Source of the DNA: a virus
Taxonomy: Duplodnaviria; Caudoviricetes
DNA length: 55,970 nucleotides
Virus record (IMG/VR): IMGVR_UViG_3300035125_000018
Coordinates: 1 to 55,970 of that record
Reading direction: 5' to 3' (one strand)
Made by a program: the position numbers and the translations under genes. Position 1 is the first letter of the stretch. Every line of letters starts with the position of its first letter. Below are positions 21,790 to 41,690 of the stretch, in pieces. A model generated the notes under the pieces. That model saw only the letters and a program-made list of their open reading frames with translations, was not told the DNA's origin and made no database searches.

Positions 21790-22593
21790 TTACCAATCCT
21801 TTTCGACAAGTATGTACGTCATGGATGCAGGAACCTTGCTCGACACGATCGTACCCTTACCGCGCATTCGTAGCTCAAGATTAACCGTTCCCTTGTTCAG
21901 CTTCTTCGACATCCAGACAAATCCAACGTTCGATACGTTTTCAGAATCCGTGAAGGCAAGACCATGACTGCCCGTACCTTTGTTGTTGCCGTTCAGAAAC
22001 AAACTGGTCCGGACAGTCTTGGTCGCGTTGGCCTTGCCATAGATCGTAGCCATGACCAGGAGCTTATCGCCTTTCCCGACTTTGACATTCTTGCTAAGAT
22101 CTGCATGGATCGGATCCCAGGATCCTCCGGTGTTGACATTGACATCGGCAGCATCGTATTTCAACCGCTTCCGGCGATTGTCTCCGCGCCGGCCGAGATG
22201 GTCCTTGATCTTCGCGACACGGTTTGAGTACGGAATCTCAGGCGATGTTGAGATCAACGTAGTGAAGAGAGCGCCGTTCGTATCCACGGAGATCACATAG
22301 GCCGTGTCATTCGTCGCGTGAAGGATCAGACCGCGATAGGGATCCTTGGCTTCGATATCGGCTTCGTTGGCAACGATCCTACCGGCCGTGACTATTCCGT
22401 TCGTACCGACAGTCAGGCCGACAACCTCACCTTCGAACGTGTTGAGATCATAAGCGATCGTCCAGCCCTGCAGCTCAACAGTCAACTCCTTGCCTTGTGG
22501 AGACAGGATCTTAATTCGAGTCACAACTCCGGTTTCCATCTGAGCCATGGCCGGCACAGCCAGGAGCATAAAGAGTACGATCAGCTTCTTCAT
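21790..22593 (-). CDS. Signal-peptide-bearing fibre-like protein
   Basis: MKKLIVLFMLLAVPAMA/Q Sec signal; GLILHATNDTAYVISVDTNGAL fibre-like segment; beta-sandwich C-terminus. Confidence 0.7.
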   Translation of the reverse strand: MKKLIVLFMLLAVPAMAQMETGVVTRIKILSPQGKELTVELQGWTIAYDLNTFEGEVVGLTVGTNGIVTAGRIVANEADIEAKDPYRGLILHATNDTAYVISVDTNGALFTTLISTSPEIPYSNRVAKIKDHLGRRGDNRRKRLKYDAADVNVNTGGSWDPIHADLSKNVKVGKGDKLLVMATIYGKANATKTVRTSLFLNGNNKGTGSHGLAFTDSENVSNVGFVWMSKKLNKGTVNLELRMRGKGTIVSSKVPASMTYILVEKDW

Positions 22594-23546
22594 TCAATCA
22601 CTACCTTACAGTCGTTTAACCGGATATCCTTTGCAGGCCCGGTAGGAGTCGCGATTCGGACAAAGAGCTGAACATAATCGTACTGGTTCAATTCGGCTAC
22701 CCACAGCATTGTCATGATAGCAGGATTTCCAGAGTCAATCGTAGAACCCATAGCCGATGCCTGTATCGGTACTCCGTTCGTTCCGAAACTAACCTTGATA
22801 TCCTGATTGCTGCCTGTGTCCGGTTCGACAGATGGGTTTGCATGAAGCGTTAGCTTAACCGGATCTTCTCCCACGTAGACCAATCGGTTCGTCACGAACA
22901 CAGTATTGGTCAGAACATCTCCTTCAGCCCATCCGGATTCCACCAAGTAATCTGTATACTTCGCAGCAATAGGAACAACAACAACATTCGTTAATCGCAT
23001 AGATCCGATCGTTGGATCCGTACTGATCGTTACTACGCCCATGCCGTTCGTTGGATCCACATGGATCCCTGGCCCCGGAAGAATCTGCTGAACCCATCCG
23101 GTAGTCGCATAGTTCGAATACATCGCTACCCACCAGTAGGCTTGATCCCAAAAACTTGTTCTCGACTCCATGTAGTCAAAGGAATTGGAGTTAAACGAAA
23201 CCCACCACCAGGCTTCATTCCATCGGCTCGTCTGATCCTCGAGGAAAGAAACGCGATTGGTCAGATCGTAGAAATCGTTGGAGTACGTCGAAACCCAAAG
23301 GTAAGCATCGTCCCACTCGTTCGAATGGGCCTTCACGTACTCAACGACATTGGAGTTGGCTTCGATCCAGTTCCAAGAATTGGTCGCGTAGAAGTGCGCG
23401 TTCGTCGCGACCACGTAGGCGTTCGAGGCTAGGGTCTGGTTGGTGTAGATGTTGCGGCGGATCCATGGCCACCAGAAGTTGAACTCGTAAGAGTAAGACG
23501 TAGCCGGCAGGACCAGCACAAGAACAAAGAAGATCCACCTACGCAT
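22590..23546 (-). CDS. Signal-peptide-bearing fibre protein with Trp-rich repeats
   Basis: MRRWIFFVLVLVLPATSYS signal; three W[DN]xA[YW]xWV repeats; PGPGIHVDPTNGMGVVTIS fibre motif. Confidence 0.7.
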   Translation of the reverse strand: MRRWIFFVLVLVLPATSYSYEFNFWWPWIRRNIYTNQTLASNAYVVATNAHFYATNSWNWIEANSNVVEYVKAHSNEWDDAYLWVSTYSNDFYDLTNRVSFLEDQTSRWNEAWWWVSFNSNSFDYMESRTSFWDQAYWWVAMYSNYATTGWVQQILPGPGIHVDPTNGMGVVTISTDPTIGSMRLTNVVVVPIAAKYTDYLVESGWAEGDVLTNTVFVTNRLVYVGEDPVKLTLHANPSVEPDTGSNQDIKVSFGTNGVPIQASAMGSTIDSGNPAIMTMLWVAELNQYDYVQLFVRIATPTGPAKDIRLNDCKVVIE

Positions 23547-23563
23547 ATCATTGTCTCTTGCCG

Positions 23564-24040
23564 TTACGGATTTCTGCCGACAGCTTCACCACTAACCGGT
23601 TCCTCAGTGACAGCCTTGCCGCGAATCGTATTCACAGCTTCGGCCACATCACTCAGCTTGCCATGCGCGATCGCAAAGAGAAGAAAGCCAGTCAACAAAA
23701 AGAGAACAACTACTGCCGTGTAGAAAACGTACTTAACCGGAAGGCCGGCGAGTGGCCCTTTCGTGAGTACAGGCTCTTTCCCGTTGGCTTGGATAAGTCC
23801 GTTCATAGTCTCCAGCTCTCCGGTAACATGGCCAACATCTTTCTTGAGGTCACGGATCCCCGCATGATTCAACTGATCCAACTCGATAACGAGTAGCCCG
23901 TTTCTGGTCAACGGGCCTCTGGCTTCATCCCAGGCTGCATCCTCATCCAGAATCTTGCACAAGGATTCTACCGAGGATCGCACTCTGGTCTTGAGCTGTT
24001 CGTCTTGAATTTTCTGCGTCTGCGATCGTGAATCCGTCAT
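23564..24040 (-). CDS. Single-TM membrane protein (holin or anchor candidate)
   Basis: Coiled-coil followed by YVFYTAVVVLFLLTGFLLFAIA TM helix; G-rich RBS before ATG 24040. Confidence 0.55.
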   Translation of the reverse strand: MTDSRSQTQKIQDEQLKTRVRSSVESLCKILDEDAAWDEARGPLTRNGLLVIELDQLNHAGIRDLKKDVGHVTGELETMNGLIQANGKEPVLTKGPLAGLPVKYVFYTAVVVLFLLTGFLLFAIAHGKLSDVAEAVNTIRGKAVTEEPVSGEAVGRNP

Positions 24041-24057
24041 TTCAACCCCCTGGTTCC

Positions 24058-24408
24058 CTATTCGCTTGACAGTCCCCACGACTGGAGAGTGTCTGCAATC
24101 GCAGGGAAATTCGTAAATACCATTTTGAACCTGACTGAATCGTTGACTGAGGTAACGGTCACATCTACAAAGGACTGGCTTGCGCCCTGCTGATCCCAAA
24201 TCGAGGACACCCACCAACTGTTCGTTCCATCGGTCATCACCGCACAGTCATTCGTCGCAAAAGTAATGCCGATCGTTTCGTACCGGTTCGTGACTGTCGC
24301 GAGATGATTCGTTCCGTCATACCTCAAGGCTTGAAGCGCAACGTGAGGATCCGCGGCCACGATACCGGCGATCAGGACTGCTGCGAATATCCAGAGAATC
24401 TTCTTCAT
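24058..24408 (-). CDS. Small secreted protein
   Basis: MKKILWIFAAVLIAGIVAA/D Sec signal. Confidence 0.75.
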   Translation of the reverse strand: MKKILWIFAAVLIAGIVAADPHVALQALRYDGTNHLATVTNRYETIGITFATNDCAVMTDGTNSWWVSSIWDQQGASQSFVDVTVTSVNDSVRFKMVFTNFPAIADTLQSWGLSSE

Positions 24409-24411
24409 TGT

Positions 24412-25953
24412 CTACCTTCTTCCTTGCAAGTATTTCTGTCTAACTTCTTCAGCGTTCCACACATGATTGTCTACCTCTACGGTATCAATGAACCCGGAGT
24501 AACGCGCAGCAGTACTTGTCGGTAGCCACCAATATCCATAACGCGCAGTAGCAGGAACCGTTGTATGCGTAAGAGTTTCGTAATCCATCACCTGCGCCTC
24601 ACCGTCCAAGTATATCTGAACCTTTGATCCTGTTGGCTTCGACAAGTCGAGCGTCCAAACAACATGATGCCACGTTCCTTCGAAAGACTCCGGCCAAACG
24701 TTGGTTGTCGTCGCAGACCACTGAACATCATCCAAGGACCGGAAAACAATACGAAAACTTCCAACAGGCGCAAAAGACTGAGCAAGCCTAAACTCATAGC
24801 CTGTCTGACTGCCGCCGTAACCACCCATGTTCAAAATCGTATTCGAGTAATTAGGAACCTTAACAATATCAGTCGGATTGGCCCACAGAGATACAGTCAA
24901 CTTATCATCCAGGCCGCCGGGGACGTAGCGCCAGAAGTTAAACTTACCAGCGAGCATGAAATCATCCACGGTATCTATGAGAACACATCCATTCCCATTG
25001 TAGTTCGTCCAGAGTGGTTGATAGATCTGGCCGATAGACGACCAGACAGAAGGCATATTGGTTTGCTCCGCCCGATAAAAACCTGCAGCCGTGTTTGTGA
25101 ATCCCCAATGCAAAACGAGATTCGTGGGAAGCGTTCCGTTCGCAACATAGTTCGACCACTGTGCAGTAGACACCAGGCCGGACACACACATGGTTTCACT
25201 GAACCAGAGATTGCTATTGGACTCGTTCCCGACGTCATTAACATTTGGCATGAAGCCGCCCATCGAAAAATGGTAGTTATTATCTGCCGTATCGCTCGCG
25301 GTCACATTCAGATTTTGGTTCCTCAAAATACCATCAACATACACAAAGAAATCGTTGTTCGCGTTATCGAAACTACAGGAGATAAAATGCCACTGTCCGT
25401 CATTGATCGTTGCGCCCGATGCAGTCACGTTGTAAGTGGTAGAAGCAAGACGCAGAGAACCACGATGGTTTGCTTGCGGAAGCGCGTAGGAGTACCAAGC
25501 ACCTACGTTCCCCCAGTAGCCTTTTCCCATGAGGTAAAGTGGTGAGCCATCAATTTTGACCCAAGTACCCCAAGACCAGTCATGTCCAAAGATATCGAGC
25601 TTGGAGTAATCTCCACCATGGATCGCCTGGTCGCCGTAGGTAATACAGTAACTATGCGTAGACGGACGAACCGCCTTGATTACCGGTGGCGCTTTCCCGA
25701 AGAAAGGTGGCGTGAGTCTCAACCTATTCCGTGCATCTCCGGTGAGACTGTTTCCGCTGAGATCCGCGATCGTAGTCGAGGCAAGACCATTCTCGTTGAA
25801 CAGCCATGTAATGGCCGCTTCAGGCGCAACGACTGGTTCGACAACAACCTTACCATCCACCATCACTATCCGGCCATCCTGAACGACAAGCGTTCCGGCA
25901 AAAGAGACAACCAATGTCACGACTACAAAGACGGCGATCAGAAAATACTTCAT
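24412..25953 (-). CDS. Secreted protein with two LamG/concanavalin-like domains
   Basis: Signal MKYFLIAVFVVVTLVVSFA; DLSGN, WVK, DGQWHFIS, YVDG, TVSLWA, TWHHVVWT, IYLDG, GFIDTV LamG motifs. Confidence 0.85.
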   Translation of the reverse strand: MKYFLIAVFVVVTLVVSFAGTLVVQDGRIVMVDGKVVVEPVVAPEAAITWLFNENGLASTTIADLSGNSLTGDARNRLRLTPPFFGKAPPVIKAVRPSTHSYCITYGDQAIHGGDYSKLDIFGHDWSWGTWVKIDGSPLYLMGKGYWGNVGAWYSYALPQANHRGSLRLASTTYNVTASGATINDGQWHFISCSFDNANNDFFVYVDGILRNQNLNVTASDTADNNYHFSMGGFMPNVNDVGNESNSNLWFSETMCVSGLVSTAQWSNYVANGTLPTNLVLHWGFTNTAAGFYRAEQTNMPSVWSSIGQIYQPLWTNYNGNGCVLIDTVDDFMLAGKFNFWRYVPGGLDDKLTVSLWANPTDIVKVPNYSNTILNMGGYGGSQTGYEFRLAQSFAPVGSFRIVFRSLDDVQWSATTTNVWPESFEGTWHHVVWTLDLSKPTGSKVQIYLDGEAQVMDYETLTHTTVPATARYGYWWLPTSTAARYSGFIDTVEVDNHVWNAEEVRQKYLQGRR

Positions 25954-26327
25954 GGCCCCACCTGATAACTGTTCGTGATCGCATCAGAATTCTCTCCGAG
26001 AATCACATTCACGGAAGCGTTTGTCCAAGTCCAGATCTCTCCGTCCGTAACTGTCAACGGAGCATTCGGGCTGTTCGGTTTTGTCCTGTCAATACCTATC
26101 GCCCATCTCACATCATTTGAGTCAGACACAGAAACCATGATAGTCATATTGCTCAATGTGTTTAATGACAAACCACGGATACCTGTGTCACCTTCGACAT
26201 CGGCCACAAAGTTGCTCTGCACTTCGGCAGTCGCATTCGTCTTAACGAACGTAAAGATGAATCGTGGAGTAGCCACGGCCACCGAAGCCATGAAGAAGAA
26301 AGCCAGAATCTTAATAGTTGTTTTCAT
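25950..26327 (-). CDS. Small secreted protein
   Basis: MKTTIKILAFFFMASVAVA/T signal at ATG 26327; the longer ORF in the track is overlap with the upstream gene. Confidence 0.7.
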   Translation of the reverse strand: MKTTIKILAFFFMASVAVATPRFIFTFVKTNATAEVQSNFVADVEGDTGIRGLSLNTLSNMTIMVSVSDSNDVRWAIGIDRTKPNSPNAPLTVTDGEIWTWTNASVNVILGENSDAITNSYQVGP

Positions 26328-29300
26328 CACGGTGATCGGGTATCGGTGTTCCCTTGGTTCCTGTTTCTTGAGCGTTCTCCAAAATCTGTGCGTCAGTGAG
26401 CGCAGTTGTCCAGAACTTGTAGTCGTCAAAGTGACCTCTCCAGTAGTAGTTGTACGGCCCCGGCAGAACAACGTAGGAACCAAGGAAGATAGCATAGTCC
26501 GAGTTGTACGAAGCGTTCGTGAAGGTTCCAGCCGTATGTGCAATACCAGTCGTTACTTCAACCCCGTTCGTGAAGATATCGCAACCCGTCCAGCTGGTTC
26601 CTCCATCGTATCTGACAGTAAGATTGACCCATCCCTGTGAAGCTGTTATGGCCCCGCCTACGATGTTCTTGCCAATATAGACATTGTTATTGTCTTGCTG
26701 GAATACAACAAATATCAGATTGGCTCCAGAGTGCAGTACCAGCCAGTCACGCTTATAGCTGTAGCCTGTAGGATACTCCCACTTATACTTGACCATGATT
26801 CCCGCAGTCCCAGTCTTGTTGTCATTCGTTACCCAGAGAGAAGCGGTGAATCCGTTGGTCTGCCCCGAGTAGGCAGAAGGAGGATACTGCATCACCATTC
26901 TGTCGCCTGCCCCATCAAGATAGTAAGAATACTCGCCTCGTCCACGGTTCCGGCTACCACGCTGACGGTTCACGCCATCCTGAACCCATGTCGGCCCAAT
27001 ATCAGGAGTGCCGTCTGGGTAGAACATGGACGTTCGACCCGAACCATAATCTCTCATGTTGTCGTCATTTTCGCAGGAATAGTACAAGGCAAGATCATTC
27101 GTGGAAACAACGTCTATGGTTTCGTTGGTTCGGTTCGCCGCAGCGATTGTTGAAATCTGATTGCTCGTCAGTCCTGCATCGTAGTACCGAATATTATCAA
27201 CCAGACCGTGAAGAGGGTAACTTGTACTAAGACCGTATTTTGCTATTACCAGTGTGTTGTTCGTGCCAAGCGTGGAGTTGGTGCAGGTTGTCGCATCTTG
27301 AAGAACACCGTTCTTGTAAAGTTCCAGAGTCGTTCCACGAAGCGTCATGGCCCAATGCTGCCATTCATTCGTCACAACGTCTGCATTAGCTTCAGCGTAT
27401 ACCCAATCGCCAGCACCGTTCCTGTCCACATAGCCTCTGACACGATCAACAAGTTCGTAGTACATCAGTAAGTACCCGTTCTGATCAGCCGAATCAACAC
27501 AGGTCATTATACCTTGAACATTCGCTGGCCCTTCAAGATTAGTCCACTTCACCCAACACGCCATAGCAACATTCGTAGAACGGAAAACCGAGTTCGTTCC
27601 TCCATCAATATAGCTGTTCCCCGATCCGGCATTCTGATACGCCCGTTCAGTACAATCATAAGCCAACCCAATAAGCGTTCCGTCATTCCCGGCAAGACTT
27701 TCATCGGTGATGTATCCTGCGTTGTTCTGGAAAGGAATGTGCGTGATCGCAGCAACAGGATCGTTCCAGCCCGATTCATCACGACCTTGCTGGTACAGAC
27801 CCAAGACCTGTTCCGGAGTCAGCGCATCAGGAAAGAGAACAAACTCATCGAGGTCGCCTCGCGTATGCCATGACCTGGCCCAGTTGCATCCAACGTAAAG
27901 CAGGTAGCCAGGAGCGCCATCCGTACCACGAAGAAACGGATTCTGCGTAATGTTGTTGGTATAAGGGACAAGGGCAACTCCATCCTTGTAGACAGTGACC
28001 GCGGGTGACGCCTGCTTATCGAACGTCACGCAGAAATGACGCCACACGTTCGCATCGGAAGCGGTAGTATAAGCGTTCGAGGCAGCATAGTATTCACTTC
28101 CAGCGGCAGGTCTTGCATGAATACTGAACGCCTTGGCCGGCCGTGGACCTGTATCAGTAGCAGAGCCGCCGACCTTCACATCCCAAATGTCTACGTTGTC
28201 AAACGTCAGCTCTGTTGACCAATCAGAGAACCGTGGATGATTGTCTGGATCGCTGTCACGCCGCCACCATGAGATCGTGCAGGTATTCGTGTCGCCAAGG
28301 TTGTTCGGCTGGCCTTGTTGTGTCCTCCCGTATGGACGCCAGTACGTCAGCCATATAGCATCGTTTACGCCATCGAAGGTCAAGTAGCCTTGCCCGTTCG
28401 TTTCTGCCCAAGAAGGCTCGGACACACTCCCAAAACGTCCGATCAAAGATGGACAATTCGTTCCGGTCGGAACAGCTCGCCAACTATTGATCGTATTCGT
28501 GAAGGCCCAACGCAGCCTCAATCCATCGTTCGTCGGAAAAACTCCGTTGTTGTAGTAGTTCGACCAGCCAGCTTCCCCAACGATACTACCGCGAATGAAG
28601 AACGCCTCCGAGTAGTACATACCCTGGCCTTCCCAAGTGTCGTAGCCGTTCATCATAAACTGGTGATCGTTGCTGGTTACACCGTCTACCGTCATGTTGC
28701 TTCCAACATACTCGCCGTCAATCGAAACGTAGAGTGCGTTGTTGTCGTCGTCGAAGTCCATCCCCAGGAGATGCCACTGATCGTCATTCAGATTCGCGTT
28801 GGGGATCGTCACTCGTTCATCATCGCCATCGAAAAAAGCTGCGATCAAGTTCGTATACGAAGCGCCGGCAGAACCATCTATCCGGAAACCCCATCCGTTA
28901 CCCCATGTTCCTTTGCAGAGCATGAACTGGTAGTTGTTATCTGAGGCTGCCAGCGTAGACGGGATCTTCACCCACACACCTGCAGAGCTGTTGGTGTTCA
29001 TATTGAGGCCCGGATCAGTCAATCCACCGGGATGTCCTACCGCCCAAGCGTACTCACACCAGCCATACGTCATAAAGTAGACGCTGCCGTAGAGATCATC
29101 TAGCGGGCCATCCTCGAACCAGAACCAATAATCTCGCACCGCCGCGCCACCATACGATTTGGCATAGTTATCGTTCCCTGACAGATCAGGCTGGAAGTTC
29201 GTCGGCGAATGAGAGAAAGACCGGATATTGAAGTCCCATCCCATCGTCGGATTACCCGGATCCGTTGGAGTGACTACAGCAACACGAACGAAGCCTCGTC

Positions 29301-29373
29301 CTCGCTGAACTATGACAACAGCCGATGCCACTCCAGCGATCAGGAGCAGCACGACAACGATCAACTTCTTCAT
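26311..29373 (-). CDS. Large secreted protein with about four LamG/concanavalin-like domains (receptor-binding candidate)
   Basis: Signal MKKLIVVVLLLIAGVASA; repeated WVK / W-H / YxxG / GxxD..-LT..QI LamG motifs. Confidence 0.85.
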   Translation of the reverse strand: MKKLIVVVLLLIAGVASAVVIVQRGRGFVRVAVVTPTDPGNPTMGWDFNIRSFSHSPTNFQPDLSGNDNYAKSYGGAAVRDYWFWFEDGPLDDLYGSVYFMTYGWCEYAWAVGHPGGLTDPGLNMNTNSSAGVWVKIPSTLAASDNNYQFMLCKGTWGNGWGFRIDGSAGASYTNLIAAFFDGDDERVTIPNANLNDDQWHLLGMDFDDDNNALYVSIDGEYVGSNMTVDGVTSNDHQFMMNGYDTWEGQGMYYSEAFFIRGSIVGEAGWSNYYNNGVFPTNDGLRLRWAFTNTINSWRAVPTGTNCPSLIGRFGSVSEPSWAETNGQGYLTFDGVNDAIWLTYWRPYGRTQQGQPNNLGDTNTCTISWWRRDSDPDNHPRFSDWSTELTFDNVDIWDVKVGGSATDTGPRPAKAFSIHARPAAGSEYYAASNAYTTASDANVWRHFCVTFDKQASPAVTVYKDGVALVPYTNNITQNPFLRGTDGAPGYLLYVGCNWARSWHTRGDLDEFVLFPDALTPEQVLGLYQQGRDESGWNDPVAAITHIPFQNNAGYITDESLAGNDGTLIGLAYDCTERAYQNAGSGNSYIDGGTNSVFRSTNVAMACWVKWTNLEGPANVQGIMTCVDSADQNGYLLMYYELVDRVRGYVDRNGAGDWVYAEANADVVTNEWQHWAMTLRGTTLELYKNGVLQDATTCTNSTLGTNNTLVIAKYGLSTSYPLHGLVDNIRYYDAGLTSNQISTIAAANRTNETIDVVSTNDLALYYSCENDDNMRDYGSGRTSMFYPDGTPDIGPTWVQDGVNRQRGSRNRGRGEYSYYLDGAGDRMVMQYPPSAYSGQTNGFTASLWVTNDNKTGTAGIMVKYKWEYPTGYSYKRDWLVLHSGANLIFVVFQQDNNNVYIGKNIVGGAITASQGWVNLTVRYDGGTSWTGCDIFTNGVEVTTGIAHTAGTFTNASYNSDYAIFLGSYVVLPGPYNYYWRGHFDDYKFWTTALTDAQILENAQETGTKGTPIPDHRDENNY

Positions 29374-29382
29374 GCGCTCCTC

Positions 29383-31362
29383 CTATGGACAGGATATCAG
29401 GAAGTCTACGCTGATCAGATTCGTGCTTGCGAAGGCCGACAGACCGGATGGAATGAATCCTATCCTCATCCCGTTGGTCACGGCCGCGGATCCGGAAAAG
29501 CTCGAGTCGGCCGTTCCGGTGGCATTGGCAGCGATCCCGCTGTCAACCGTGTTGTAGGTATACCATCCCTGGCTTCGATGTTGGGAGACTACCGTTACGG
29601 CGCCTGTCGCTCCATGAGCCTTCGCGTAAATCTCTGTGATCGTACAGGATCTAGTTCCGAACGGGTTGGCCATCCAGTAGGCTATCCCATTCGTCATATC
29701 CTGAATCTCAAGAGTGAACGATCGAACGATGTTCGTCTGATTCGCGTTGTTCTTGTAACCGGCAGCCGCATGATCTCCCCAACCGTAGGCCGTATCCCAT
29801 TTGTTCGACTCACTTTCAACGTACTTGTAGAGAGGATCGTTGGTAGTGACCAGGCCGGTAAAGTTGGTTGAGCCAGCCAGCCTGACTCCATTGACAAAAG
29901 CATTCGTGCCGAGAAGAACCCGAACACCAGATCCCCTGTAATCCTGATCTCCTGCCGTGACCGTATTCGGACCATCATTCGTCATGAGATTAGCTGGCAG
30001 GGTGGATATGAAGTTCGATGGATTACTGGCCTTATAGTACAAGTTCGATTCCGAGGTCCATATAGGATCTGTTTCAACAAATCCTGTCAGATAACCAGCG
30101 TCATTCGCGAAGAAACTGACGTTCGTAGGATACGAGTAGTTCAACATCCGTCCCGATCGAGCAACGGAGAAGTTCGTACCGGGCTGCACGGATCCGTTCG
30201 TAACCGCGATCTGATAGATCGGATCATTCGTATAGACAACGCGATTGCTGTTGGAGTTCCAGTCGGGATCCAGTTCGGCAGTCAGAAATCCCGGGTCGTT
30301 ATTGTACTGGCTCAGATTCGTCCAGCCGCCTTCCTGGCCGAGCTGAACATAGGCAACACCATCCGTGTTCGCAAACGGGATATACACAAGAGCCTGACCG
30401 TTCGTGAACCTGAGAAATGGATTCCTGTTATGGGTCCACGAAGATCCAACCGTATTGAAATTCGAAGCAGAGATCTCTTTGAACGGCATCTGCTGAGATC
30501 CGATGGATGTAGCATTGGACCCGATCGGCATGATGGAGTTGCTGACAATCAGCATACCGTTGATGAAGAAACGCCGATTATCAAACTCACCATAGACCAG
30601 AGCATTTGTCGTACGGGAATACGCAGGGTTCCCATCAATGATGAGAGTATACGGCCGATTCACACTATACCCCGCTTCCCGACCAATAAAGACACAGTTG
30701 CTATTCCCGTAGGCAGTAGAATAACCGGCGCGAGGCCCGATCATCACGGAGTACTGAGCATTATTAGCTCCCCATCGGCCGGTATAGTACCCAATGAGAA
30801 CGGCCTGATCGTAGTTGGTTGATGTCGTGCCGGCTCCCCATCCAAGAGCTGTTCCATAACTAGTATCATTTGCTCCCGTCCCTGCTCGGGTTCCGATAAA
30901 CGTAGAACCAGGCACTCGTCGCGCTACATTTCCGGCGAGCGATCCGTATGCTGTCAGCTCTGTGCTGCTCTCGGCAAAACGACCGGCATAGTATCCAACG
31001 ATCGTCTGAAACGTACTGTTCGATGCAAACTCGCCAGCGTGATAACCAATATAGATCGAATCGGCCGAGTTGACTGCTTCCTTCCCGGCGCTGTGATCAG
31101 TACCAATCGCGAGAACACCGTTGGTATTAAGAACATTCAAAAAACCAGTGATGTTCAAATTCGTGGCACTACTGTTCGTGAACCAGAGATTGTCAATCCA
31201 CGCGTTCGAAAAAAACTGAGTTGTCCCAGGATCGTAGGTGTTGTTCTGAGAAGTACGAACAACGTCGCCCGGAAGCGTGAAGTCTGCCGTCGGGTTCACA
31301 ACGCCAGCAATAAGAACCGAGGCGATCAAAACGATCGCCGCAGCGAAAAGAAGATGCTTCAT
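29383..31362 (-). CDS. Signal-peptide-bearing trimeric tail fibre with YadA-head-like repeats
   Basis: Signal MKHLLFAAAIVLIASVLIA; ~8 (I/V/L)GxxAG repeats; ETDP/ELDP, NDAGYLT and WDTAYGWGDHAAAGY fibre motifs. Confidence 0.8.
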   Translation of the reverse strand: MKHLLFAAAIVLIASVLIAGVVNPTADFTLPGDVVRTSQNNTYDPGTTQFFSNAWIDNLWFTNSSATNLNITGFLNVLNTNGVLAIGTDHSAGKEAVNSADSIYIGYHAGEFASNSTFQTIVGYYAGRFAESSTELTAYGSLAGNVARRVPGSTFIGTRAGTGANDTSYGTALGWGAGTTSTNYDQAVLIGYYTGRWGANNAQYSVMIGPRAGYSTAYGNSNCVFIGREAGYSVNRPYTLIIDGNPAYSRTTNALVYGEFDNRRFFINGMLIVSNSIMPIGSNATSIGSQQMPFKEISASNFNTVGSSWTHNRNPFLRFTNGQALVYIPFANTDGVAYVQLGQEGGWTNLSQYNNDPGFLTAELDPDWNSNSNRVVYTNDPIYQIAVTNGSVQPGTNFSVARSGRMLNYSYPTNVSFFANDAGYLTGFVETDPIWTSESNLYYKASNPSNFISTLPANLMTNDGPNTVTAGDQDYRGSGVRVLLGTNAFVNGVRLAGSTNFTGLVTTNDPLYKYVESESNKWDTAYGWGDHAAAGYKNNANQTNIVRSFTLEIQDMTNGIAYWMANPFGTRSCTITEIYAKAHGATGAVTVVSQHRSQGWYTYNTVDSGIAANATGTADSSFSGSAAVTNGMRIGFIPSGLSAFASTNLISVDFLISCP

Positions 31363-31363
31363 C

Positions 31364-31912
31364 CTAGTACTCCTGAGTTAGCGCCCTCGCGGGTTGGTCT
31401 ATGCAGATTGCGTACACGGCAAGCTGAAGCTGTTCCTCGCTGGCCCAAGCTGTTCCACCAGGCTTCAAGAGGATCCCGGCATTCGTGACCGCAGGATACC
31501 CATAGGCAAGCCAGATATCATTCGTGCCGCCATTCCCGATCTCGATACCTGTACGATCCCGAGGCTGGACGCGCCGCCAAACGTTCGTTGTGCCATCGGC
31601 AGCATCGCCCCAGGCATGATCAGGCATCGTGACGGTGACGTACTTGTTCGTGACTGGAGACACGTTCCAGTACACGCGATCGGTATGGCTGGTACTACGA
31701 CACAGATCTCCGTTGCCATACGCACGACCGGCCTCCCAATTTCGCGCGGCCCGGACACGCGGCGCCGCGATCATGAGAGAGTACGTCTGCAGGTTAAATC
31801 CGGCTGGCCGCACTCGGTAATTCTTGACACCGCCGGCGAACGCGAAAACTCCGGCCATGAGTGCGACCAGCACGAAAGCTATACTTGCATAGAGGATACG
31901 CTTCATCTTCAA
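31364..31912 (-). CDS. Secreted virion-associated protein
   Basis: Signal KRILYASIAFVLVALMAGVFAFA; WEAGRAYGNGDLC carbohydrate-binding-like motif; C-terminal IGNGGTNDIWLAYG...GILLKPGG. Confidence 0.7.
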   Translation of the reverse strand: MKMKRILYASIAFVLVALMAGVFAFAGGVKNYRVRPAGFNLQTYSLMIAAPRVRAARNWEAGRAYGNGDLCRSTSHTDRVYWNVSPVTNKYVTVTMPDHAWGDAADGTTNVWRRVQPRDRTGIEIGNGGTNDIWLAYGYPAVTNAGILLKPGGTAWASEEQLQLAVYAICIDQPARALTQEY

Positions 31913-31918
31913 TCTCCT

Positions 31919-32551
31919 TTAACCTATTGCGATCCAGTTAATGTTCACGGTCCTGTCCACAGGAAAGTCGTTGCAGCCATAGATCTTGAATCCAAGGTAA
32001 TCAGCATCCCGAACATAGACAGAAAACAGATTCGCGAGATCCGAGTCAACATCAACCGTAAGAACGACAATCGGATTAACCGCCGCACCAAACGGAACCT
32101 GATACGTCACGGTTGTTAGTTCCTCATCGTCGTTACCCGATGTCATGTCAATAGCCTCTTCCTGGCCGGATAGAACCTGCACGTTCTGCGTAACCGGAGA
32201 AACAATCTTGTATGGATTCGGAGGACCGACCTGAAACATGATCGAGCCTTCGGGGGCCACGGTCCCGGGAGAAGAGTTGACAAGAACGCCGGTATTCACC
32301 ATCGCCAATCCGGTAACTCCTACGCGACCGATAATCTGCATGAAGCCAAGACCATCAATGTAGACATATGCACCGATCGCCCAATGATTACTATTGCACA
32401 CGATAACCGTTGTCGTACCTCCAATGCTCGGCATACTCACAGCCGAGGCAATCGCTTCCCACATATAGGAAGTGTTGCAGGCCGCAGCCTCGGGAGTCTC
32501 TGCGACACAATGAATCGTGCAGTCCGGGGGAAGTATTACAGGATCAGTCAT
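31919..32551 (-). CDS. Virion structural protein (no signal peptide); C-terminal H-type-lectin-like domain
   Basis: VTYQVPFG..PIVVLT...GFKI...INWIAIG pattern typical of fibre-tip domains. Confidence 0.6.
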   Translation of the reverse strand: MTDPVILPPDCTIHCVAETPEAAACNTSYMWEAIASAVSMPSIGGTTTVIVCNSNHWAIGAYVYIDGLGFMQIIGRVGVTGLAMVNTGVLVNSSPGTVAPEGSIMFQVGPPNPYKIVSPVTQNVQVLSGQEEAIDMTSGNDDEELTTVTYQVPFGAAVNPIVVLTVDVDSDLANLFSVYVRDADYLGFKIYGCNDFPVDRTVNINWIAIG

Positions 32552-32562
32552 TTCATTTCTCC

Positions 32563-34212
32563 TTAGCTGATTCCAGGGGCTACCTGTAGTCGAAGCGGAT
32601 TCCGTACAGCATGAACACCGGCATACGGGCTGAACGTGATATCAAATATCGGATGCCCGGTAGAAGGATCCAACGTGACAGTCATATTGTGGATCGTAAG
32701 ATTCCACTTCACGCCGGGGTGAACGTGTCCAACCTCATGAGGTGTTCCGTTATCATAGATCTTTACTCCGGTCGTAGATCCATCTCCCCAAGTCTTTGAG
32801 TACTGGTAGGCGTTCCCGCCATATCCAACGTAGGTCATTGGTGTGATGTTGACGCCACCCCCGCCAGGATAAGACCATGTATACTTTGCATCTATCGGGC
32901 CGGCCAGCGGAGTCTGCACCTTGATATGAACCTCAACCAAACTGGATCCAGTCTCGGACGGATTTGCAGGATTCTCGGCCTGGGCTTCCAGAGTACCGCC
33001 GTTGTAATCACCAGCTCCATCCCCAGCTGGCGTATACTCGAGCGTTCCCGGCTGATTGCCTCCTGCAATAAGACCTGTTCCATTCGGAGGCGTAACAACG
33101 AATGCACCAGACAAACCCCCGTCCGGAGTATTGACCATCGTGAAGTCAACCGGGACAAGAGCGTTATTCTGAAGAACCCAATCTTCAGACACAGGGTTGT
33201 TGTCGAGAGGCACTACGGACATCACGATCGGATCCGGCGTAAGATCCACGGCGATCACAGCCGCTTCGAATGTTATCACCTTTGAGTCCGTTGTAATTGC
33301 ATCGTCGGCACAAGCGGCCACTTCATGCGTATGAATCGTCACAATGCAGGAAAGAGTCTCTGTGGCAACAGGAGCCGAAGTAAATTCTACATCGAAGTTC
33401 CGAACAATCTCATCGGAGATCGGACCCAAACATCCAGCCGGCACGGTAACATCAGAACCGGCCGGCCAAGTTCCCTGCTTCTCAACAGTAATCCTGTAGT
33501 AACCTGTAACTCCGTGAATGTTGGAAAACTCGACGTTGACTGTAGAGTCGCCCGTACCGCTATCTACTGTTCCTGTCTGTGACTCAGAAGTTTCAAAACG
33601 AAACACCGGACGAATTACCCAAGGATCAGGTTCCGAATCCGTTGGGAGTAACACGTTCTGCTGATTCTCATCTCCGGGTTCCGGATAGAAATTATCCCAA
33701 TTCGGCTCACCGGGATATACACCTGTAGGCGTTACAGGCTGCGTAGGATAACGACGAAGATTCAGGCTACCTTGCTGATTGTACGGATACGGAAGCAGAG
33801 GTGTTGGAATCGGCAACGGATTCGGAGGCCGTATCGGTGGTATCGGCGCAGGAGGCACTTGCGGTAGCGGTGGTATTCTCAGCCAGAGCTGTTCACCATT
33901 TGGATCCGGCAGAATAACCGTCCACGGAAAGATCGGATTCATTTCATCGTCAAAGATCTCGGGCTCGGCCTGCCAGTTCTGATCGGACTCAAACCAGATC
34001 GTGGCAAAAGGAAGTTCCTCTCCCGGATAGATAGTGAAGCTGAACCAGATTGGTTCCCCGTTCTCGTAGTAGTCGGCCGTGAGCATGGCCGGCGAATAGA
34101 ACCCGCGCTCCCAAGGAACCCAATCCGCAATCTGTGTGAGAGAGTCAGGGGACCAGCATCGAGAACAACCGCAACCAGCTCTATGACAACACTCGGAGGT
34201 TTCGCAAGTCAT
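32563..34212 (-). CDS. Pro-rich virion structural/decoration protein with Cys-rich N-terminus and Ig-like domains
   Basis: GGGGAG RBS before ATG 34212 (MTCETSECCHRAGCGCSRC); Pro-rich linker; beta-rich acidic C-terminus. Confidence 0.6.
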   Translation of the reverse strand: MTCETSECCHRAGCGCSRCWSPDSLTQIADWVPWERGFYSPAMLTADYYENGEPIWFSFTIYPGEELPFATIWFESDQNWQAEPEIFDDEMNPIFPWTVILPDPNGEQLWLRIPPLPQVPPAPIPPIRPPNPLPIPTPLLPYPYNQQGSLNLRRYPTQPVTPTGVYPGEPNWDNFYPEPGDENQQNVLLPTDSEPDPWVIRPVFRFETSESQTGTVDSGTGDSTVNVEFSNIHGVTGYYRITVEKQGTWPAGSDVTVPAGCLGPISDEIVRNFDVEFTSAPVATETLSCIVTIHTHEVAACADDAITTDSKVITFEAAVIAVDLTPDPIVMSVVPLDNNPVSEDWVLQNNALVPVDFTMVNTPDGGLSGAFVVTPPNGTGLIAGGNQPGTLEYTPAGDGAGDYNGGTLEAQAENPANPSETGSSLVEVHIKVQTPLAGPIDAKYTWSYPGGGGVNITPMTYVGYGGNAYQYSKTWGDGSTTGVKIYDNGTPHEVGHVHPGVKWNLTIHNMTVTLDPSTGHPIFDITFSPYAGVHAVRNPLRLQVAPGIS

Positions 34213-34224
34213 ATCGCTCCCCGT

Positions 34225-34259
34225 AAAGCAAGGCCGCCTGCATGGAACAGACGGCCTTG
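34225..34259 (-). terminator. Hairpin, probable terminator/attenuator
   Basis: caaggccgtctg...caggcggccttg stem followed by cttt on the - strand. Confidence 0.5.
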
Positions 34260-34286
34260 TTGGATACAACTGAAACCGTCAGCCTG

Positions 34287-34691
34287 CTATATCTGCCGCC
34301 AGTCGTTGGTGGTCAGACCGACGGAGATCCAGGCCGCGCCGACACTGTTCGTGTTGCCGACGAGGATTTCCCCAAGCATAACCGGCTGGTATGCTGTCGT
34401 GGTTGTGGTCGTGTTCGTGTCAACCGTGACCAGGGGGAGCTTGCTTCCACGATACTGCACCGTATCGTCGTCCGCGTTCGAGCCTGTCCCGATCTGACAG
34501 GCGCGATCGGCGTCCACCGAACTCATACCATCGCATGAGCTGAGAGCAATGCTCCCGGTGGAGTCGGCCGAGATCACGGACCCGAAGCCGAGCTTGTGAT
34601 TCTGTGTGCCCTGCTGAACGAACGTGGCCCCGGTCAAAAACCCGACCACCAGCACGCAGATAACCAAGGTGATAACGTGAGCTTTCTTCAT
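34287..34691 (-). CDS. Secreted protein directly after the major capsid gene
   Basis: MKKAHVITLVICVLVVGFLTGA signal; AGGAGA RBS. Confidence 0.7.
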   Translation of the reverse strand: MKKAHVITLVICVLVVGFLTGATFVQQGTQNHKLGFGSVISADSTGSIALSSCDGMSSVDADRACQIGTGSNADDDTVQYRGSKLPLVTVDTNTTTTTTAYQPVMLGEILVGNTNSVGAAWISVGLTTNDWRQI

Positions 34692-41062: not shown

Positions 41063-41690
41063 GTTCGCGTCCTTTCTTCACTATTTTCAGTTTCCAACAA
41101 TGCTCAGGATATCCGGAAGCCTTCTTCGTAGTCTCGATGATGGTCTGCTCATCTATGAACACATGAATCTGATTCAGTACCCCGCAGATACCACAGGCCA
41201 TCAGCTTATCATCGTGTGCAGTCCTCCTTCCACGTTTGAGATTTTCGATAATGCTCCGAACACCCCGGCAAGACATACAGCCAGCGAAAGGAAGGTTCTT
41301 GGAGCAGTCCCTACAGACTGCAGCTCTGGCATTGGCAACTCTCGTTTTAACGTTTGAACGGGAGGCACGCTGCATGATCCGATGAATAAGCATGGTCGCT
41401 CGGACTGCTGACTCAGCCGTTTTGTGAGCAGCGCCATACCGTACCGTTCGTCCTCGCGAGTCTTTGCAGATCCCCGCCGGCATTTTTCCGCAGAGCCAAT
41501 CTTCAATACGCTCGGGAAGATCATCAGGGATGGGGAGCTTATTCGAGGTCCGGTGGACTGTGACCTTCTTGACAAGGCGTGCCATATCCGGTGCAGAAAA
41601 CTTCTGGTTCGTGTCCGAGTCAACGTACCTAAACCCCCCTGGCGGCGTCACATTCTTTCTGGCCAGCTTTAACATGGCGGTTTGTATCAC
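40887..41690 (-). CDS. Cys-rich metal-binding protein downstream of TerL
   Basis: PPGGFRY N-terminus; CRDC, CMSC, CGIC, HCW. Confidence 0.65.
   Translation of the reverse strand: MIQTAMLKLARKNVTPPGGFRYVDSDTNQKFSAPDMARLVKKVTVHRTSNKLPIPDDLPERIEDWLCGKMPAGICKDSRGRTVRYGAAHKTAESAVRATMLIHRIMQRASRSNVKTRVANARAAVCRDCSKNLPFAGCMSCRGVRSIIENLKRGRRTAHDDKLMACGICGVLNQIHVFIDEQTIIETTKKASGYPEHCWKLKIVKKGREHGSTNGRSERKNTAHGKGGRSRGPSYRTANVRKGRKGMDLKRVGPGSHKGGCCGGAGR

What the first reader, a model, noticed from the sequence alone, without database searches (positions are those of the whole stretch)
21790..34691. Tail-fibre/decoration block made largely of Sec-exported proteins
Seen: nine genes between capsid and nozzle (starts 34691, 31912, 31362, 29373, 26327, 25953, 24408, 23546, 22593) begin with M-K/R plus a hydrophobic core and usually a small-residue cleavage site. 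Several also carry phage fibre motifs: WDTAYGWGDHAAAGY, ETDP, NDAGYLT, YadA-head-like GxxAG repeats and LamG domains. A single-TM protein (23564-24040) sits among them. Established: Caudoviricetes fibres normally fold and attach in the cytoplasm and have no signal peptides. Inference: this phage exports its appendages to the periplasm and adds them to particles at or after inner-membrane breach, i.e. two-compartment assembly. Alternatively it displays them on the infected cell as adhesins or receptor decoys. I know of no described tailed-phage system like this.
Basis: partly seen in the sequence, partly recalled or inferred. Interest (0 to 1): 0.9.

Follow-up and report, generated by a model that had tools for sequence, protein, structure and literature searches.

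The report
Phage fibre proteins carrying export signals
A complete 56-kb short-tailed phage, like many of its uncultured relatives, puts ordinary bacterial secretion signals on nine sugar-binding, fibre-like proteins encoded between its capsid and tail genes, so its host-recognition gear probably folds outside the cytoplasm where the particle is built.

Summary
By my own hydrophobicity rule (no trained predictor was on hand), nine of the 12 genes at 21790-34691 start with a Sec-type leader: a positive start, an apolar core and small residues at -3/-1. None of the 27 other genes does. The block lies between a capsid-position gene and a protein whose model matches podovirus tail nozzles.

The trait is conserved. 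In relatives with 26-76% capsid identity, leader-like starts mark 64 of 177 ORFs downstream of the capsid gene against 7 of 267 upstream. Leader sequences drift while the mature N-termini stay conserved. Some distant relatives follow the Bacteroidota +1-Gln rule.

The bodies are receptor-binding types: LamG, a YadA-head-like roll, and C1q in relatives. They sit among leaderless tail-collar fibres and lysis-type genes.

Export is likely (about 0.85). The destination is open. I favour late attachment to the particle (0.35) over non-virion envelope roles. A cultured analogue exists: the GenBank record of Cellulophaga phage phi18:3 lists three leader-bearing proteins as MS/MS-detected virion proteins.

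This scan has noted the same phenomenon on many other genomes. I found no paper that explains it.

The parts
34786..36339 (-). Major capsid protein candidate (517 aa). It has no leader and forms the upstream border of the block.
   Evidence: It follows portal-sized and scaffold-like genes. It has 63 homologues. Atlas feature look-alikes at 0.92-0.93 include clusters with Phage_capsid_4 and Gp10A-like families. No Pfam, PHROG or PDB sequence hit. Not folded.
34287..34691 (-). Leader protein 1 (134 aa): MKKAH plus a 20-residue apolar run, then a conserved beta-roll module and a short C-terminal tail.
   Evidence: Flagged. Orthologues occupy the same position in 16 relatives: 12 flagged, 1 leader-like by eye (L021) and 4 leaderless. 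In the AF2 model residues 30-88 have pLDDT above 90. The best structural matches are trimeric autotransporter heads: UspA1 Z 6.7, SadA 6.0, YadA 4.9, all below the tool's own Z 8 caution line.
32563..34212 (-). Leaderless 549-aa protein with an N-terminal Cys cluster (CxxxxxCC...CxC..C), a proline-rich linker and beta-rich domains. The longest ORF starts at TTG 34269.
   Evidence: Cys-cluster proteins of 92-623 aa follow the first leader gene in L018, L019, L046, L011, L013, L047, L010 and L002. Only the N-terminal ~100 residues align with L018 and L019.
31919..32551 (-). Leaderless 210-aa protein, a candidate cytoplasm-built receptor-binding or adaptor protein.
   Evidence: Homologues in L019 (199 aa) and L002 (291 aa, directly upstream of the nozzle gene). 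No Pfam or PHROG hit.
31364..31906 (-). Leader protein 2 (180 aa): MKR plus a 24-residue apolar run, either a cleaved leader or a signal anchor.
   Evidence: Leader-bearing homologues in L019 (42% identity) and L002.
29383..31362 (-). Leader protein 3 (659 aa): a mosaic fibre-like protein with IGxxAG-type repeats, NDAGYLT/ETDP/WDTAYGWGDH motifs and a C-terminal domain at 545-659.
   Evidence: HMMER over 1.84 billion representatives found 1592 hits at E<=0.001. Of the 150 listed (query included), 67 have a leader-like start. No hit in GenBank phages at 1e-5 or in PDB sequences.
26311..29373 (-). Leader protein 4 (1020 aa): MKK-LIVVVLLLIAGVASA, with four LamG (Laminin_G_3) stretches.
   Evidence: Pfam PF13385, E 1e-41. 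PHROG 3545 and 14220. Paralogue of 24412-25953 over residues 1-469.
25950..26327 (-). Leader protein 5 (125 aa): MKTTIK-ILAFFFMASVAVA|TP.
   Evidence: No family hit.
24412..25953 (-). Leader protein 6 (513 aa), with two LamG domains.
   Evidence: Pfam PF13385 E 1.2e-17 and Laminin_G_2 E 6.1e-6. Flagged.
24058..24408 (-). Leader protein 7 (116 aa): MKK-ILWIFAAVLIAGIVAA|DP.
23564..24040 (-). 158-aa protein with a charged N-terminal ~100 residues and a single C-terminal TM segment. It is the only holin-like or membrane gene in the block.
   Evidence: TM peak at residue 106, mean hydropathy 2.52. No homologue in the related loci. Other small membrane or lipobox genes sit at the same place in relatives.
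22590..23546 (-). Leader protein 8 (318 aa): MRR-WIFFVLVLVL-PATSYS, then a conserved mature N-terminus (xxFxxxWPxIxR), Trp-rich SNxWDxAY repeats and a variable C-terminal beta-sandwich.
   Evidence: Orthologues lie directly upstream of the nozzle gene in L018 and L019, both with leaders. The C-terminal domain matches PHROG 16509 and the C-terminus of leaderless KVP40.0366.
21790..22593 (-). Leader protein 9 (267 aa): MKK-LIVLFMLLAV-PAMA|QM, the most classical leader. It overlaps the nozzle gene start.
   Evidence: No family hit. Atlas look-alikes score below 0.9.
19998..21788 (-). Tail nozzle/hub protein (596 aa from the ATG). It has no leader and forms the downstream border of the block.
   Evidence: AF2 with an 8-row alignment: pLDDT 62.9, pTM 0.68. 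Foldseek against PDB: Pa223 tail E 5.3e-13, P22 tail complex 1.1e-11, Sf6 1.7e-11, VP1 8e-11, T7 tail 9.9e-9.

Best explanation
The block is the phage's receptor-binding module. Nine of its proteins carry working Sec-type leaders.

Proposed sequence of events: the proteins are made late together with the head and tail proteins. They are threaded through the host inner membrane and trimmed by signal peptidase I; the longest apolar runs may instead stay as membrane anchors. They then fold in the periplasm as glycan-binding fibres and lectins. The particle (capsid, portal, nozzle, internal proteins) is built in the cytoplasm. The two sets meet only when the inner membrane is breached by the membrane and lysis genes embedded in the same locus. 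The exported proteins then dock through their conserved mature N-terminal modules.

Shown here: the leader features, their restriction to this block, their conservation across the family, the receptor-binding-type domains, and the nozzle fold.

Inferred: export itself (I put it at about 0.85) and attachment to the particle. The confidence given is for the whole chain.
For: (1) Restriction to the block. Leaders occur on 9 of 12 block genes and 0 of 27 others.

(2) Family conservation. In de-duplicated ORFs of the related loci, 64 of 177 downstream of the capsid gene are leader-like against 7 of 267 upstream (Fisher p 8e-22). A 98%-complete relative with 34% capsid identity (G001) has eight leader proteins in a row before a 590-aa nozzle: seven flagged and one by eye.

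(3) Leaders evolve like leaders. In the nozzle-adjacent fibre, only M1 and L13 are invariant in the leader, while F22, W26, P27, I29 and R31 just after the cleavage site are invariant.

(4) Host dialect. Gln follows the predicted site in 13 of 29 leaders of the distant group, against 4 of 22 and 3 of 9 in the others. This is the Bacteroidota Q-rule (PMC10653852, abstract only; PMC10367356, passages).

(5) Fibre architecture. Two families (34287-34691 and 22590-23546) have a conserved N-terminal module and variable C-termini.

(6) Leaderless orthologues. Four of the 17 members of the first family lack a leader but keep the module, so its partner should be reachable from both compartments.

(7) Mixed blocks in relatives. 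Leaderless Phage Tail Collar proteins (E 2.9e-11 and 6.2e-12) are interleaved with leader proteins that carry LamG, RCC1+C1q or a weak depolymerase C-domain.

(8) Transcription. There is no excess of promoter-like sites (9 against 12.5±3.9 in shuffles) or terminator-like sites (10 against 14.4±3.8) inside the block.

(9) Cultured analogue. Cellulophaga phage phi18:3 gp085, gp086 and gp087 sit next to the endolysin gene. The record annotates them as virion structural or tail proteins 'based on experimental MS/MS proteomics analysis'. All three start with Q-rule leaders, as 3 of the 12 MS-annotated proteins I scanned do.
Against: - No tailed phage has a demonstrated Sec-routed virion part. I found none in print.
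- No leader protein has a recognisable homologue of a known particle-binding domain.
- The same locus also holds lysis-type genes in the window and in relatives, so its position does not prove a virion role.
- Leaderless candidates could supply receptor binding alone: 31919-32551, 32563-34212, the Collar proteins in relatives, and the 271- and 327-aa proteins of G001.
- Of the 150 best hits of 29383-31362, 67 carry leaders. Many look like large cellular surface proteins, so fibre motifs are not specific to virions.
- The trend 'more leader genes, shorter nozzle' has an exception. It runs window 596 aa/9, G001 590/8, L018 605/3, L019 600/3, L003 1356/2, L005 and L032 ~1093/2, L006 1987/0, L007 2180/0. 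But G002 (L002) has a 1211-aa nozzle ORF with seven leader genes.
- Cysteine counts in the mature parts are 2, 2, 3, 12, 0, 4, 1, 1, 0, which gives no clear pairing signal.
- MS/MS detection in phi18:3 could reflect sticky lectins or vesicles that co-purify. I did not read the primary paper.
- All leader calls rest on my own heuristic.
Confidence: 0.35

Rival explanations
1. The proteins are exported but are not part of the particle. They act on the infected cell's envelope from the periplasm. They could bind or mask glycan or peptidoglycan structures, exclude superinfecting phage, help lysis or release, or act as adhesins. On this view they belong with the lysis genes that share the locus.
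For: Holin-like, spanin-like (lipobox) and papain-like peptidase genes sit inside or beside the leader block in the window and in relatives. Known exported phage proteins are all non-virion; the T4 RI antiholin has a cleavable signal peptide (PMC8385771, search listing only). Matrishin et al. read Q-rule leader proteins of Porphyromonas phages as modifiers of the host outer membrane (PMC10367356, passages). Leaderless receptor-binding candidates exist for the particle itself.
Against: Nine genes covering about 10 kb of a 56-kb lytic genome is a large outlay for an accessory role. None has a lipobox or an outer-membrane anchor or sorting domain by Pfam, so nothing takes them beyond the periplasm. 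No leaderless paralogue shares a binding domain with a leader protein, which a decoy or masking scheme would predict. Conserved N-terminal modules with variable C-termini, and leaderless orthologues, fit docking to a conserved phage partner better.
Confidence: 0.25
2. The proteins are exported only to fold. The periplasm supplies calcium, an oxidising milieu and perhaps modification. They are then set free at lysis as soluble lectins or depolymerase-like proteins. These condition neighbouring cells, capsule or debris without being bound to the particle.
For: LamG/ConA-like, C1q, RCC1 and a weak depolymerase C-domain are carbohydrate-binding or carbohydrate-cutting folds. The small leader proteins (116-180 aa) do not look like fibres. 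S/T-Asn dipeptides are 2.4-fold over expectation in the leader proteins alone (106 observed against 44.9 expected; other genes 42 against 47.8). That hints at a shared structural or modification feature of an extracytoplasmic set.
Against: No catalytic family was detected in the window's nine proteins. The conserved mature N-termini have no role in a free soluble protein. This reading shares every step with the best explanation except docking.
Confidence: 0.15
3. The hydrophobic N-termini are not export signals. They would be buried trimerisation or docking helices, or membrane-active segments used at infection, and the proteins stay in the cytoplasm.
For: Five of the nine apolar runs are 19-24 residues long, longer than typical cleaved leaders. 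No trained predictor was run. AF2 models residues 3-18 of the first protein as a helix.
Against: The full n-h-c layout, with Lys/Arg at positions 2-3 and small residues at -3/-1, recurs on unrelated proteins. The sequence is not conserved where the mature part is. The Q-rule in one sub-group matches host signal-peptidase usage. Four orthologues do without the segment.
Confidence: 0.08
4. The leader proteins are type II membrane anchors of a lipid envelope or membrane patch that the particle acquires.
For: Several apolar runs are long, and a tail-anchored membrane protein lies in the block.
Against: The terminase hits, the nozzle fold and the gene order are those of ordinary membrane-less podoviruses. 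At least four leaders are short, classical and proline-broken.
Confidence: 0.03

Closest known systems
Cellulophaga phage phi18:3 gp085, gp086, gp087 (GenBank NC_021794; Pachyviridae, cultured podovirus)
   Same: Three consecutive large proteins (547, 785 and 559 aa) with classical Sec-type leaders sit a few genes upstream of the endolysin. The record annotates them as virion structural or tail proteins from MS/MS. No other MS-annotated protein I scanned in that record has a leader (3 of 12).
   Different: No sequence similarity to any protein of this family and no Pfam domain. The host is a Bacteroidota member and the leaders have +1 Gln. The genes lie outside the head-to-tail gene run. The lead came from earlier notes of this scan, and I recalled the accession and confirmed it from the record. 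I did not read the primary paper, and I found no text that discusses the leaders.
Leaderless podovirus tailspikes and fibres (P22 gp9, T7 gp17) docking on the adaptor/nozzle
   Same: The tail hub fold is the same. So is the fibre logic of a conserved N-terminus and a variable receptor-binding C-terminus. From memory, P22 tailspikes attach to finished heads in vitro, so late attachment is chemically plausible.
   Different: Those proteins have no leader and fold in the cytoplasm. No homology to their particle-binding domains was found here.
Bdellovibrio bacteriovorus mosaic adhesive trimer (MAT) fibres (Caulton et al. 2024, PMC10769870; abstract and passages read)
   Same: Phage-fibre-like trimeric proteins with a signal peptide, a conserved part right after it and swapped adhesive tips, exported and shown on a cell surface.
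   Different: MATs are cellular. All 21 share one ~130-aa N-terminal domain. The nine proteins here share no common domain and are encoded in a lytic phage's late operon.
Trimeric autotransporter adhesin heads (YadA, UspA1, SadA, BoaA)
   Same: They are Sec-exported. The conserved module of 34287-34691 gives its best structural matches to these heads (Z 6.7-4.8). An orthologue has a sub-threshold YadA_head hit (E 0.0083).
   Different: There is no C-terminal beta-barrel anchor (no Pfam hit). All Z scores are under the tool's caution line of 8.
Q-rule signal-peptide proteins of Porphyromonas gingivalis phages (Matrishin et al. 2023, PMC10367356; passages read)
   Same: Tailed-phage genes have leaders adapted to the host's signal peptidase usage. 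The distant relatives here show the same +1 Gln habit.
   Different: Those are five genes of unknown function in prophages. The authors read them as modifiers of the host outer membrane, and the passages I read do not mention fibres or tail parts.

Membership tests
Sec / signal peptidase I signal peptides | Short positively charged n-region | tested here: met
   All nine start M-K/R within the first 2-6 residues and have net charge +1 or +2 before the apolar core.
Sec / signal peptidase I signal peptides | Hydrophobic h-region near the N-terminus | tested here: met
   The best 10-residue hydropathy is 2.56-3.86 and starts at residues 4-9. Genes outside the block score at most 1.65. Uncharged runs are 10-24 residues; five of them (19-24) are long enough to be anchors instead.
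Sec / signal peptidase I signal peptides | c-region with small residues at -3 and -1 | tested here: met
   Each of the nine has at least one such site 15-26 residues in, for example AMA|Q, ASA|V, AVA|T, VAA|D. This is a rule of thumb and not a trained model.
Sec / signal peptidase I signal peptides | Positive call by a trained predictor, or demonstrated export and cleavage | not testable with these tools
   SignalP and DeepTMHMM were not available, and there is no experiment.
Podovirus tail nozzle/hub (P22 gp10, T7 gp12), for 19998-21788 | Nozzle fold | tested here: met
   Foldseek E 5.3e-13 to 1e-8 against Pa223, P22, Sf6, VP1, PhiM1 and T7 tail chains, with target-normalised TM up to 0.61. 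The model has pTM 0.68.
Classical podovirus tail fibre or tailspike (T7 gp17, P22 gp9) | Recognisable N-terminal particle-binding domain | tested here: inconclusive
   No Pfam, PHROG, NCBIfam or PDB sequence hit. Conserved N-terminal modules exist, but their partner is unknown.
Classical podovirus tail fibre or tailspike (T7 gp17, P22 gp9) | Leaderless protein that folds in the cytoplasm | tested here: not met
   Nine proteins carry leader-like N-termini.
LamG / concanavalin A-like lectin superfamily | Pfam Laminin_G_3 above the gathering score | tested here: met
   24412-25953 scores 64.9 bits and 26311-29373 scores 143 bits, against a cut-off of 27.6.
Trimeric autotransporter adhesins | YadA-like head repeats | tested here: inconclusive
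   Structural Z 4.8-6.7 for residues 25-98 of 34287-34691. Pfam YadA_head scores only 16.9 bits, under the cut-off of 25, and in an orthologue. Foldseek E values are above 0.2.
Trimeric autotransporter adhesins | C-terminal beta-barrel membrane anchor | tested here: not met
   No anchor family appears among the Pfam hits of eight of the nine leader proteins at E<=0.01; 25950-26327 was not scanned against Pfam (NCBIfam only).
Bdellovibrio MAT fibres | One conserved ~130-aa domain after the signal peptide in all members | tested here: not met
   All-against-all BLAST of the block proteins links only 24412-25953 with 26311-29373, and weakly 22590-23546 with 29383-31362.
Bacterial lipoproteins, including exported phage lipoproteins such as spanins | Lipobox with Cys at +1 | tested here: not met
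   None of the nine window leaders ends in L-x-x-C. Lipobox genes do occur beside the block in relatives (L005, L032, L046).
Type IX secretion cargo (relevant to the Q-rule relatives) | C-terminal sorting domain | tested here: inconclusive
   No such Pfam hit in the relatives' leader proteins that I scanned: 6 and 6. Not all were scanned.

The most novel reading that the evidence does not exclude
Two-compartment virion assembly is a conserved and obligatory trait of this podovirus family, across hosts of different phyla. The head, nozzle and internal proteins are built in the cytoplasm. The whole outer host-recognition set is exported by Sec, folds in the periplasm, and docks through conserved mature N-termini only once the membrane genes embedded in the same locus open the inner membrane. 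Lysis timing and completion of the particle would then be one coupled step. Given the cultured phi18:3 analogue and the many similar notes in this scan, this would be a widespread, overlooked assembly route of tailed phages.
Probability: 0.3. Interest if true: 0.9.

Novelty: new variant of a known kind. Interest (0 to 1): 0.72.

Why it matters
Textbook tailed-phage assembly happens wholly in the cytoplasm. If receptor-binding proteins are routed through the periplasm, four things change:
- where and when particles become infectious;
- which host factors phages depend on (Sec, signal peptidase, periplasmic folding and perhaps modification);
- how lysis timing couples to maturation;
- how fibres should be expressed for structural work or engineering.

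It also bears on annotation. Leader-bearing genes in phage late operons are usually set aside as non-structural. Even if the proteins never join the particle, a conserved battery of up to nine exported lectin-like proteins in a lytic phage has no described function.

The question is directly testable in a cultured, harmless marine system, Cellulophaga baltica phage phi18:3.

Tried and rejected
- **N-glycosylation sequons.** N-x-S/T is not enriched beyond composition in the leader proteins (39 observed, 42.1 expected). I dropped host N-glycosylation as an explanation.
- **Paired cysteines.** There is no consistent even count. A Cys pair in 34287-34691 and its three closest orthologues is absent from the leaderless orthologues, but also from other leader-bearing ones.
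- **A shared 'DGR' strand after the leader.** Only three proteins carry it, so I dropped it.
- **Nozzle insertions as fused versions of the leader proteins.** BLAST found no similarity between the insertions of the 1093-2180-aa nozzle proteins and any leader protein, and Pfam found nothing there.
- **Tat signal on 22590-23546 (MRR...).** Rejected by eye: the n-region is 3 residues and the core is very hydrophobic.
- **Sequence searches that gave nothing useful.**
  - PHROG and Pfam on head and packaging genes.
  - NCBIfam on the block.
  - PDB sequence searches with 29383-31362, the capsid profile, the nozzle and the portal.
  - tblastn of 29383-31362 against GenBank phages.
  - Word-index searches with 22590-23546 alone and as a 3-row profile, which returned only itself and the L018 orthologue.
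  - A cluster look-up of 10 homologues of 29383-31362, which returned no names.
  - The Atlas search with 21790-22593, with all scores under 0.9.
- **Fold searches.** Foldseek of the 34287-34691 model against PDB and BFVD gave nothing at E<=0.001.
- **Complex prediction.** I tested 32563-34212 with mature 34287-34691. The verdict was 'no answer', score 0.00 against a mark of 0.32, and the controls were not run. This is neither for nor against binding.
- **Host.** No tRNA genes. One 2987-bp capsid-gene contig is binned in an uncultured Planctomycetia MAG, which is too short to trust. The strong Shine-Dalgarno sites and the lack of +1 Gln argue against Bacteroidota for the window phage itself.
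- **Literature.** Searches, and passages of PMC3338817 and PMC12014285, turned up no description of Sec-routed tail fibres.

Full report
**What the window is.** The 55,970-bp window is a whole IMG/VR virus record with direct terminal repeats, rated 100% complete. Genes from about 6.2 to 46.5 kb run on the minus strand.
- The gene at 41687-43453 gives weak tblastn hits to annotated phage terminases (8 records, E 9e-6 to 3e-4).
- Portal-sized (784 aa), scaffold-like (412 aa) and capsid-position (517 aa) genes follow it.
- None of these, nor a 2899-aa protein further on, has a Pfam or PHROG hit, so this is a very divergent phage.
- The 596-aa protein at 19998-21788 was modelled with an 8-row alignment (pLDDT 62.9, pTM 0.68). 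It matches podovirus tail nozzle/hub chains: Pa223 E 5.3e-13, P22 1.1e-11, Sf6 1.7e-11, T7 9.9e-9.
- 'Capsid' rests on gene order, 63 homologues and language-model look-alikes whose clusters carry phage capsid families.

**The observation.**
- A simple scan flags 9 of the 12 genes in 21790-34691 and 0 of 27 genes elsewhere. It asks for a best 10-residue hydropathy of at least 2.4 near the N-terminus and positive charge before it.
- Four leaders are textbook: a 10-16-residue core, with a proline or small-residue c-region such as PAMA|Q or PATSYS|Y.
- Five have uncharged runs of 19-24 residues that contain internal AxA-type sites. These could be cleaved or could stay as anchors.
- LamG domains are confirmed in two proteins, and the fibre motifs are present in 29383-31362.
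- The block has lower G+C (0.495-0.534) than its flanks.
- It shows no excess of promoter-like or terminator-like sites, so it is probably read with the late operon.
- I had no trained signal-peptide predictor.

**Relatives keep the signals.** A capsid profile brought in 15 viral loci, 1 genome-collection locus and 50 metagenome loci, with 26-76% capsid identity.
- I took mechanically called ORFs of at least 60 aa on the capsid strand and de-duplicated them. For each ORF I kept the most hydrophobic of its alternative starts; this inflates both classes alike.
- Leader-like starts mark 64 of 177 ORFs downstream of the capsid gene, 7 of 267 upstream and 0 of 56 overlapping it (Fisher p 8e-22).
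- A 98%-complete relative with only 34% capsid identity (G001) repeats the whole layout. After the capsid gene come eight leader proteins (seven flagged, one by eye) and one small Cys-cluster protein. Next come a small TM protein and three leaderless genes of 191, 271 and 327 aa, none with a Pfam hit, followed by a 590-aa nozzle.
- Not every relative has the trait. L006, L007 and L036 have no leader genes after the capsid gene.

**They behave like real leaders.**
- In the fibre next to the nozzle gene (22590-23546 and its L018 and L019 orthologues), the leader shares only M1 and L13. The first mature residues F22, W26, P27, I29 and R31 are invariant.
- In the most distant group, Gln follows the predicted cleavage site in 13 of 29 leaders. 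The figures are 4 of 22 in the near group and 3 of 9 in the middle group.
- That is the Bacteroidota 'Q-rule' (PMC10653852, abstract). Matrishin et al. already noted it for unknown genes of Porphyromonas phages (PMC10367356, passages).
- So leaders in different sub-groups seem tuned to different hosts. The window phage has strong Shine-Dalgarno sites and only one +1 Gln, so it probably has a non-Bacteroidota host. One 3-kb contig in a Planctomycetia bin is only a faint hint.

**What the proteins are.**
- The first gene after the capsid gene has positional orthologues in 16 relatives. All share a module (IAIGS...A.QIGxGxNxT..QYR) followed by unrelated C-terminal domains.
- AF2 models this module confidently, with pLDDT above 90 for residues 30-88. 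Its best structural matches are heads of trimeric autotransporter adhesins (UspA1 Z 6.7, SadA 6.0, YadA 4.9) and the phi29 appendage (Z 5.0). All are below the tool's caution line, and Foldseek gave nothing significant.
- Of the 17 members, 12 are flagged as leader-bearing, one (L021) looks so by eye, and four (L023, L028, L029, L065) have no leader at all.
- The C-terminal sandwich of 22590-23546 recurs at the C-terminus of leaderless KVP40.0366.
- 24412-25953 and 26311-29373 are paralogues.
- In relatives, the leader proteins carry LamG, DUF2341, RCC1 plus C1q, a glycine-rich domain and a weak depolymerase C-domain. Leaderless Phage Tail Collar proteins sit among them.
- The locus is therefore the receptor-binding region. 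It also houses holin-like, lipobox and papain-like genes.

**Limits of the fibre argument.**
- HMMER over 1.84 billion representatives found 1592 relatives of parts of 29383-31362. Of the 150 best (query included), 67 have leader-like starts, and many look like large cellular surface proteins.
- Fibre motifs with leaders are thus common outside phages. The Bdellovibrio MAT fibres are a studied example (PMC10769870).
- The window also has two leaderless, fibre-like-composition proteins (31919-32551 and 32563-34212) that could serve the particle.

**A cultured analogue.** Following a lead in earlier notes of this scan, I opened GenBank NC_021794, Cellulophaga phage phi18:3.
- gp085, gp086 and gp087 lie just upstream of the endolysin. 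The record annotates them as virion structural or tail proteins 'based on experimental MS/MS proteomics analysis'.
- All three begin with Q-rule leaders. None of the other nine MS-annotated proteins I scanned does.
- They share no sequence similarity with this family.
- This is the only experimental hint that leader-bearing proteins travel with tailed-phage particles. I did not read the primary paper, and co-purifying contaminants are possible.

**Reading.** Export is well supported by inference (about 0.85). The destination is not settled. I favour late docking on the particle (0.35) for these reasons:
- two families have the fibre pattern of a conserved N-terminus and a variable C-terminus;
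- one family works with and without a leader;
- there are no decoy-style leaderless paralogues;
- the phi18:3 record lists leader-bearing proteins as virion proteins.

Against this: there is no proven precedent, the locus also holds lysis genes, and the suggestive inverse trend between nozzle length and number of leader genes is broken by G002 (a 1211-aa ORF with seven leader genes).

The rivals are a periplasmic envelope role (0.25), free extracellular lectins (0.15), not a signal at all (0.08) and a lipid-bearing particle (0.03).

**Place in the scan and in print.** The same phenomenon has been noted on many other genomes in this scan. Later checks there upheld the observation but priced the bold reading near 10 in 100. 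Relatives of this particular family had not been seen before. My literature searches found no paper that describes or explains it.

Noticed in passing
window 21790-34691 (the nine leader proteins) against all other genes: Ser/Thr-Asn dipeptides are 2.4-fold over the composition-shuffled expectation in the mature leader proteins (106 observed, 44.9 expected). They are not enriched in the 30 other genes (42 against 47.8). They usually follow a hydrophobic residue. N-x-S/T sequons are not enriched (39 against 42.1). I have no explanation; it may be structural (turns of beta-rich fibres) or a modification motif.
   Followed up: partly
window 23564-24040; L018:15785-16533; L005:15558-16509; L032:7231-8182; L074:5063-6082: Small membrane, coiled-coil, lipobox (spanin-like) and papain-like genes lie inside or right after the leader block, between the capsid and nozzle genes, in several branches of the family. 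The window itself has only the one tail-anchored TM protein there.
   Followed up: partly
window 32563-34212 and L018:11801-13672, L019:12714-14522, L046:4788-5162, L023:13457-13786, L011:12556-12861, L002:3392-3670: A leaderless protein with an N-terminal cysteine cluster follows the first leader gene throughout the family. Its size ranges from 92 to 623 aa. The short forms end in a beta-rich segment with an NGxxQxxGxDYT-like motif that also opens the leaderless 415-aa fibre-like protein of L036. It may be a metal-binding anchor piece.
   Followed up: partly
L003:13299-17369, L005:16502-19783, L032:8175-11459, L006:13206-19169, L007:8765-15307, L075 (G002, 1211-aa ORF): The nozzle core is three conserved segments (window residues 1-56, 69-355 and 360-596). 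Relatives carry insertions of hundreds of residues between them, or a long C-terminal extension. These have no Pfam hit and no similarity to the leader proteins.
   Followed up: partly
window 7231-15930: A 2899-aa protein after the tail genes has no Pfam hit, no cysteine and one weak hydrophobic peak. It is presumably an internal or ejection protein of the T7 gp16 kind by position only.
   Followed up: no
P0037 (capsid homologue): One source names a 47%-identical homologue of the capsid-position protein 'microcompartment protein CcmK/EutM'. This looks like a mis-annotation.
   Followed up: no
L017 (CAYQKA010000095.1, 2987 bp): The only hit in the species-genome collection is a 3-kb contig holding a 48%-identical capsid gene, binned in an uncultured Planctomycetia MAG. 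This is a weak host hint at best.
   Followed up: no
L068:2807-4261 (Vibrio phage KVP40, KVP40.0366): This 484-aa hypothetical protein lies between the major head gene and inh. It has a fibre-like N-terminus and shares its C-terminal sandwich with window 22590-23546. It has no leader.
   Followed up: partly
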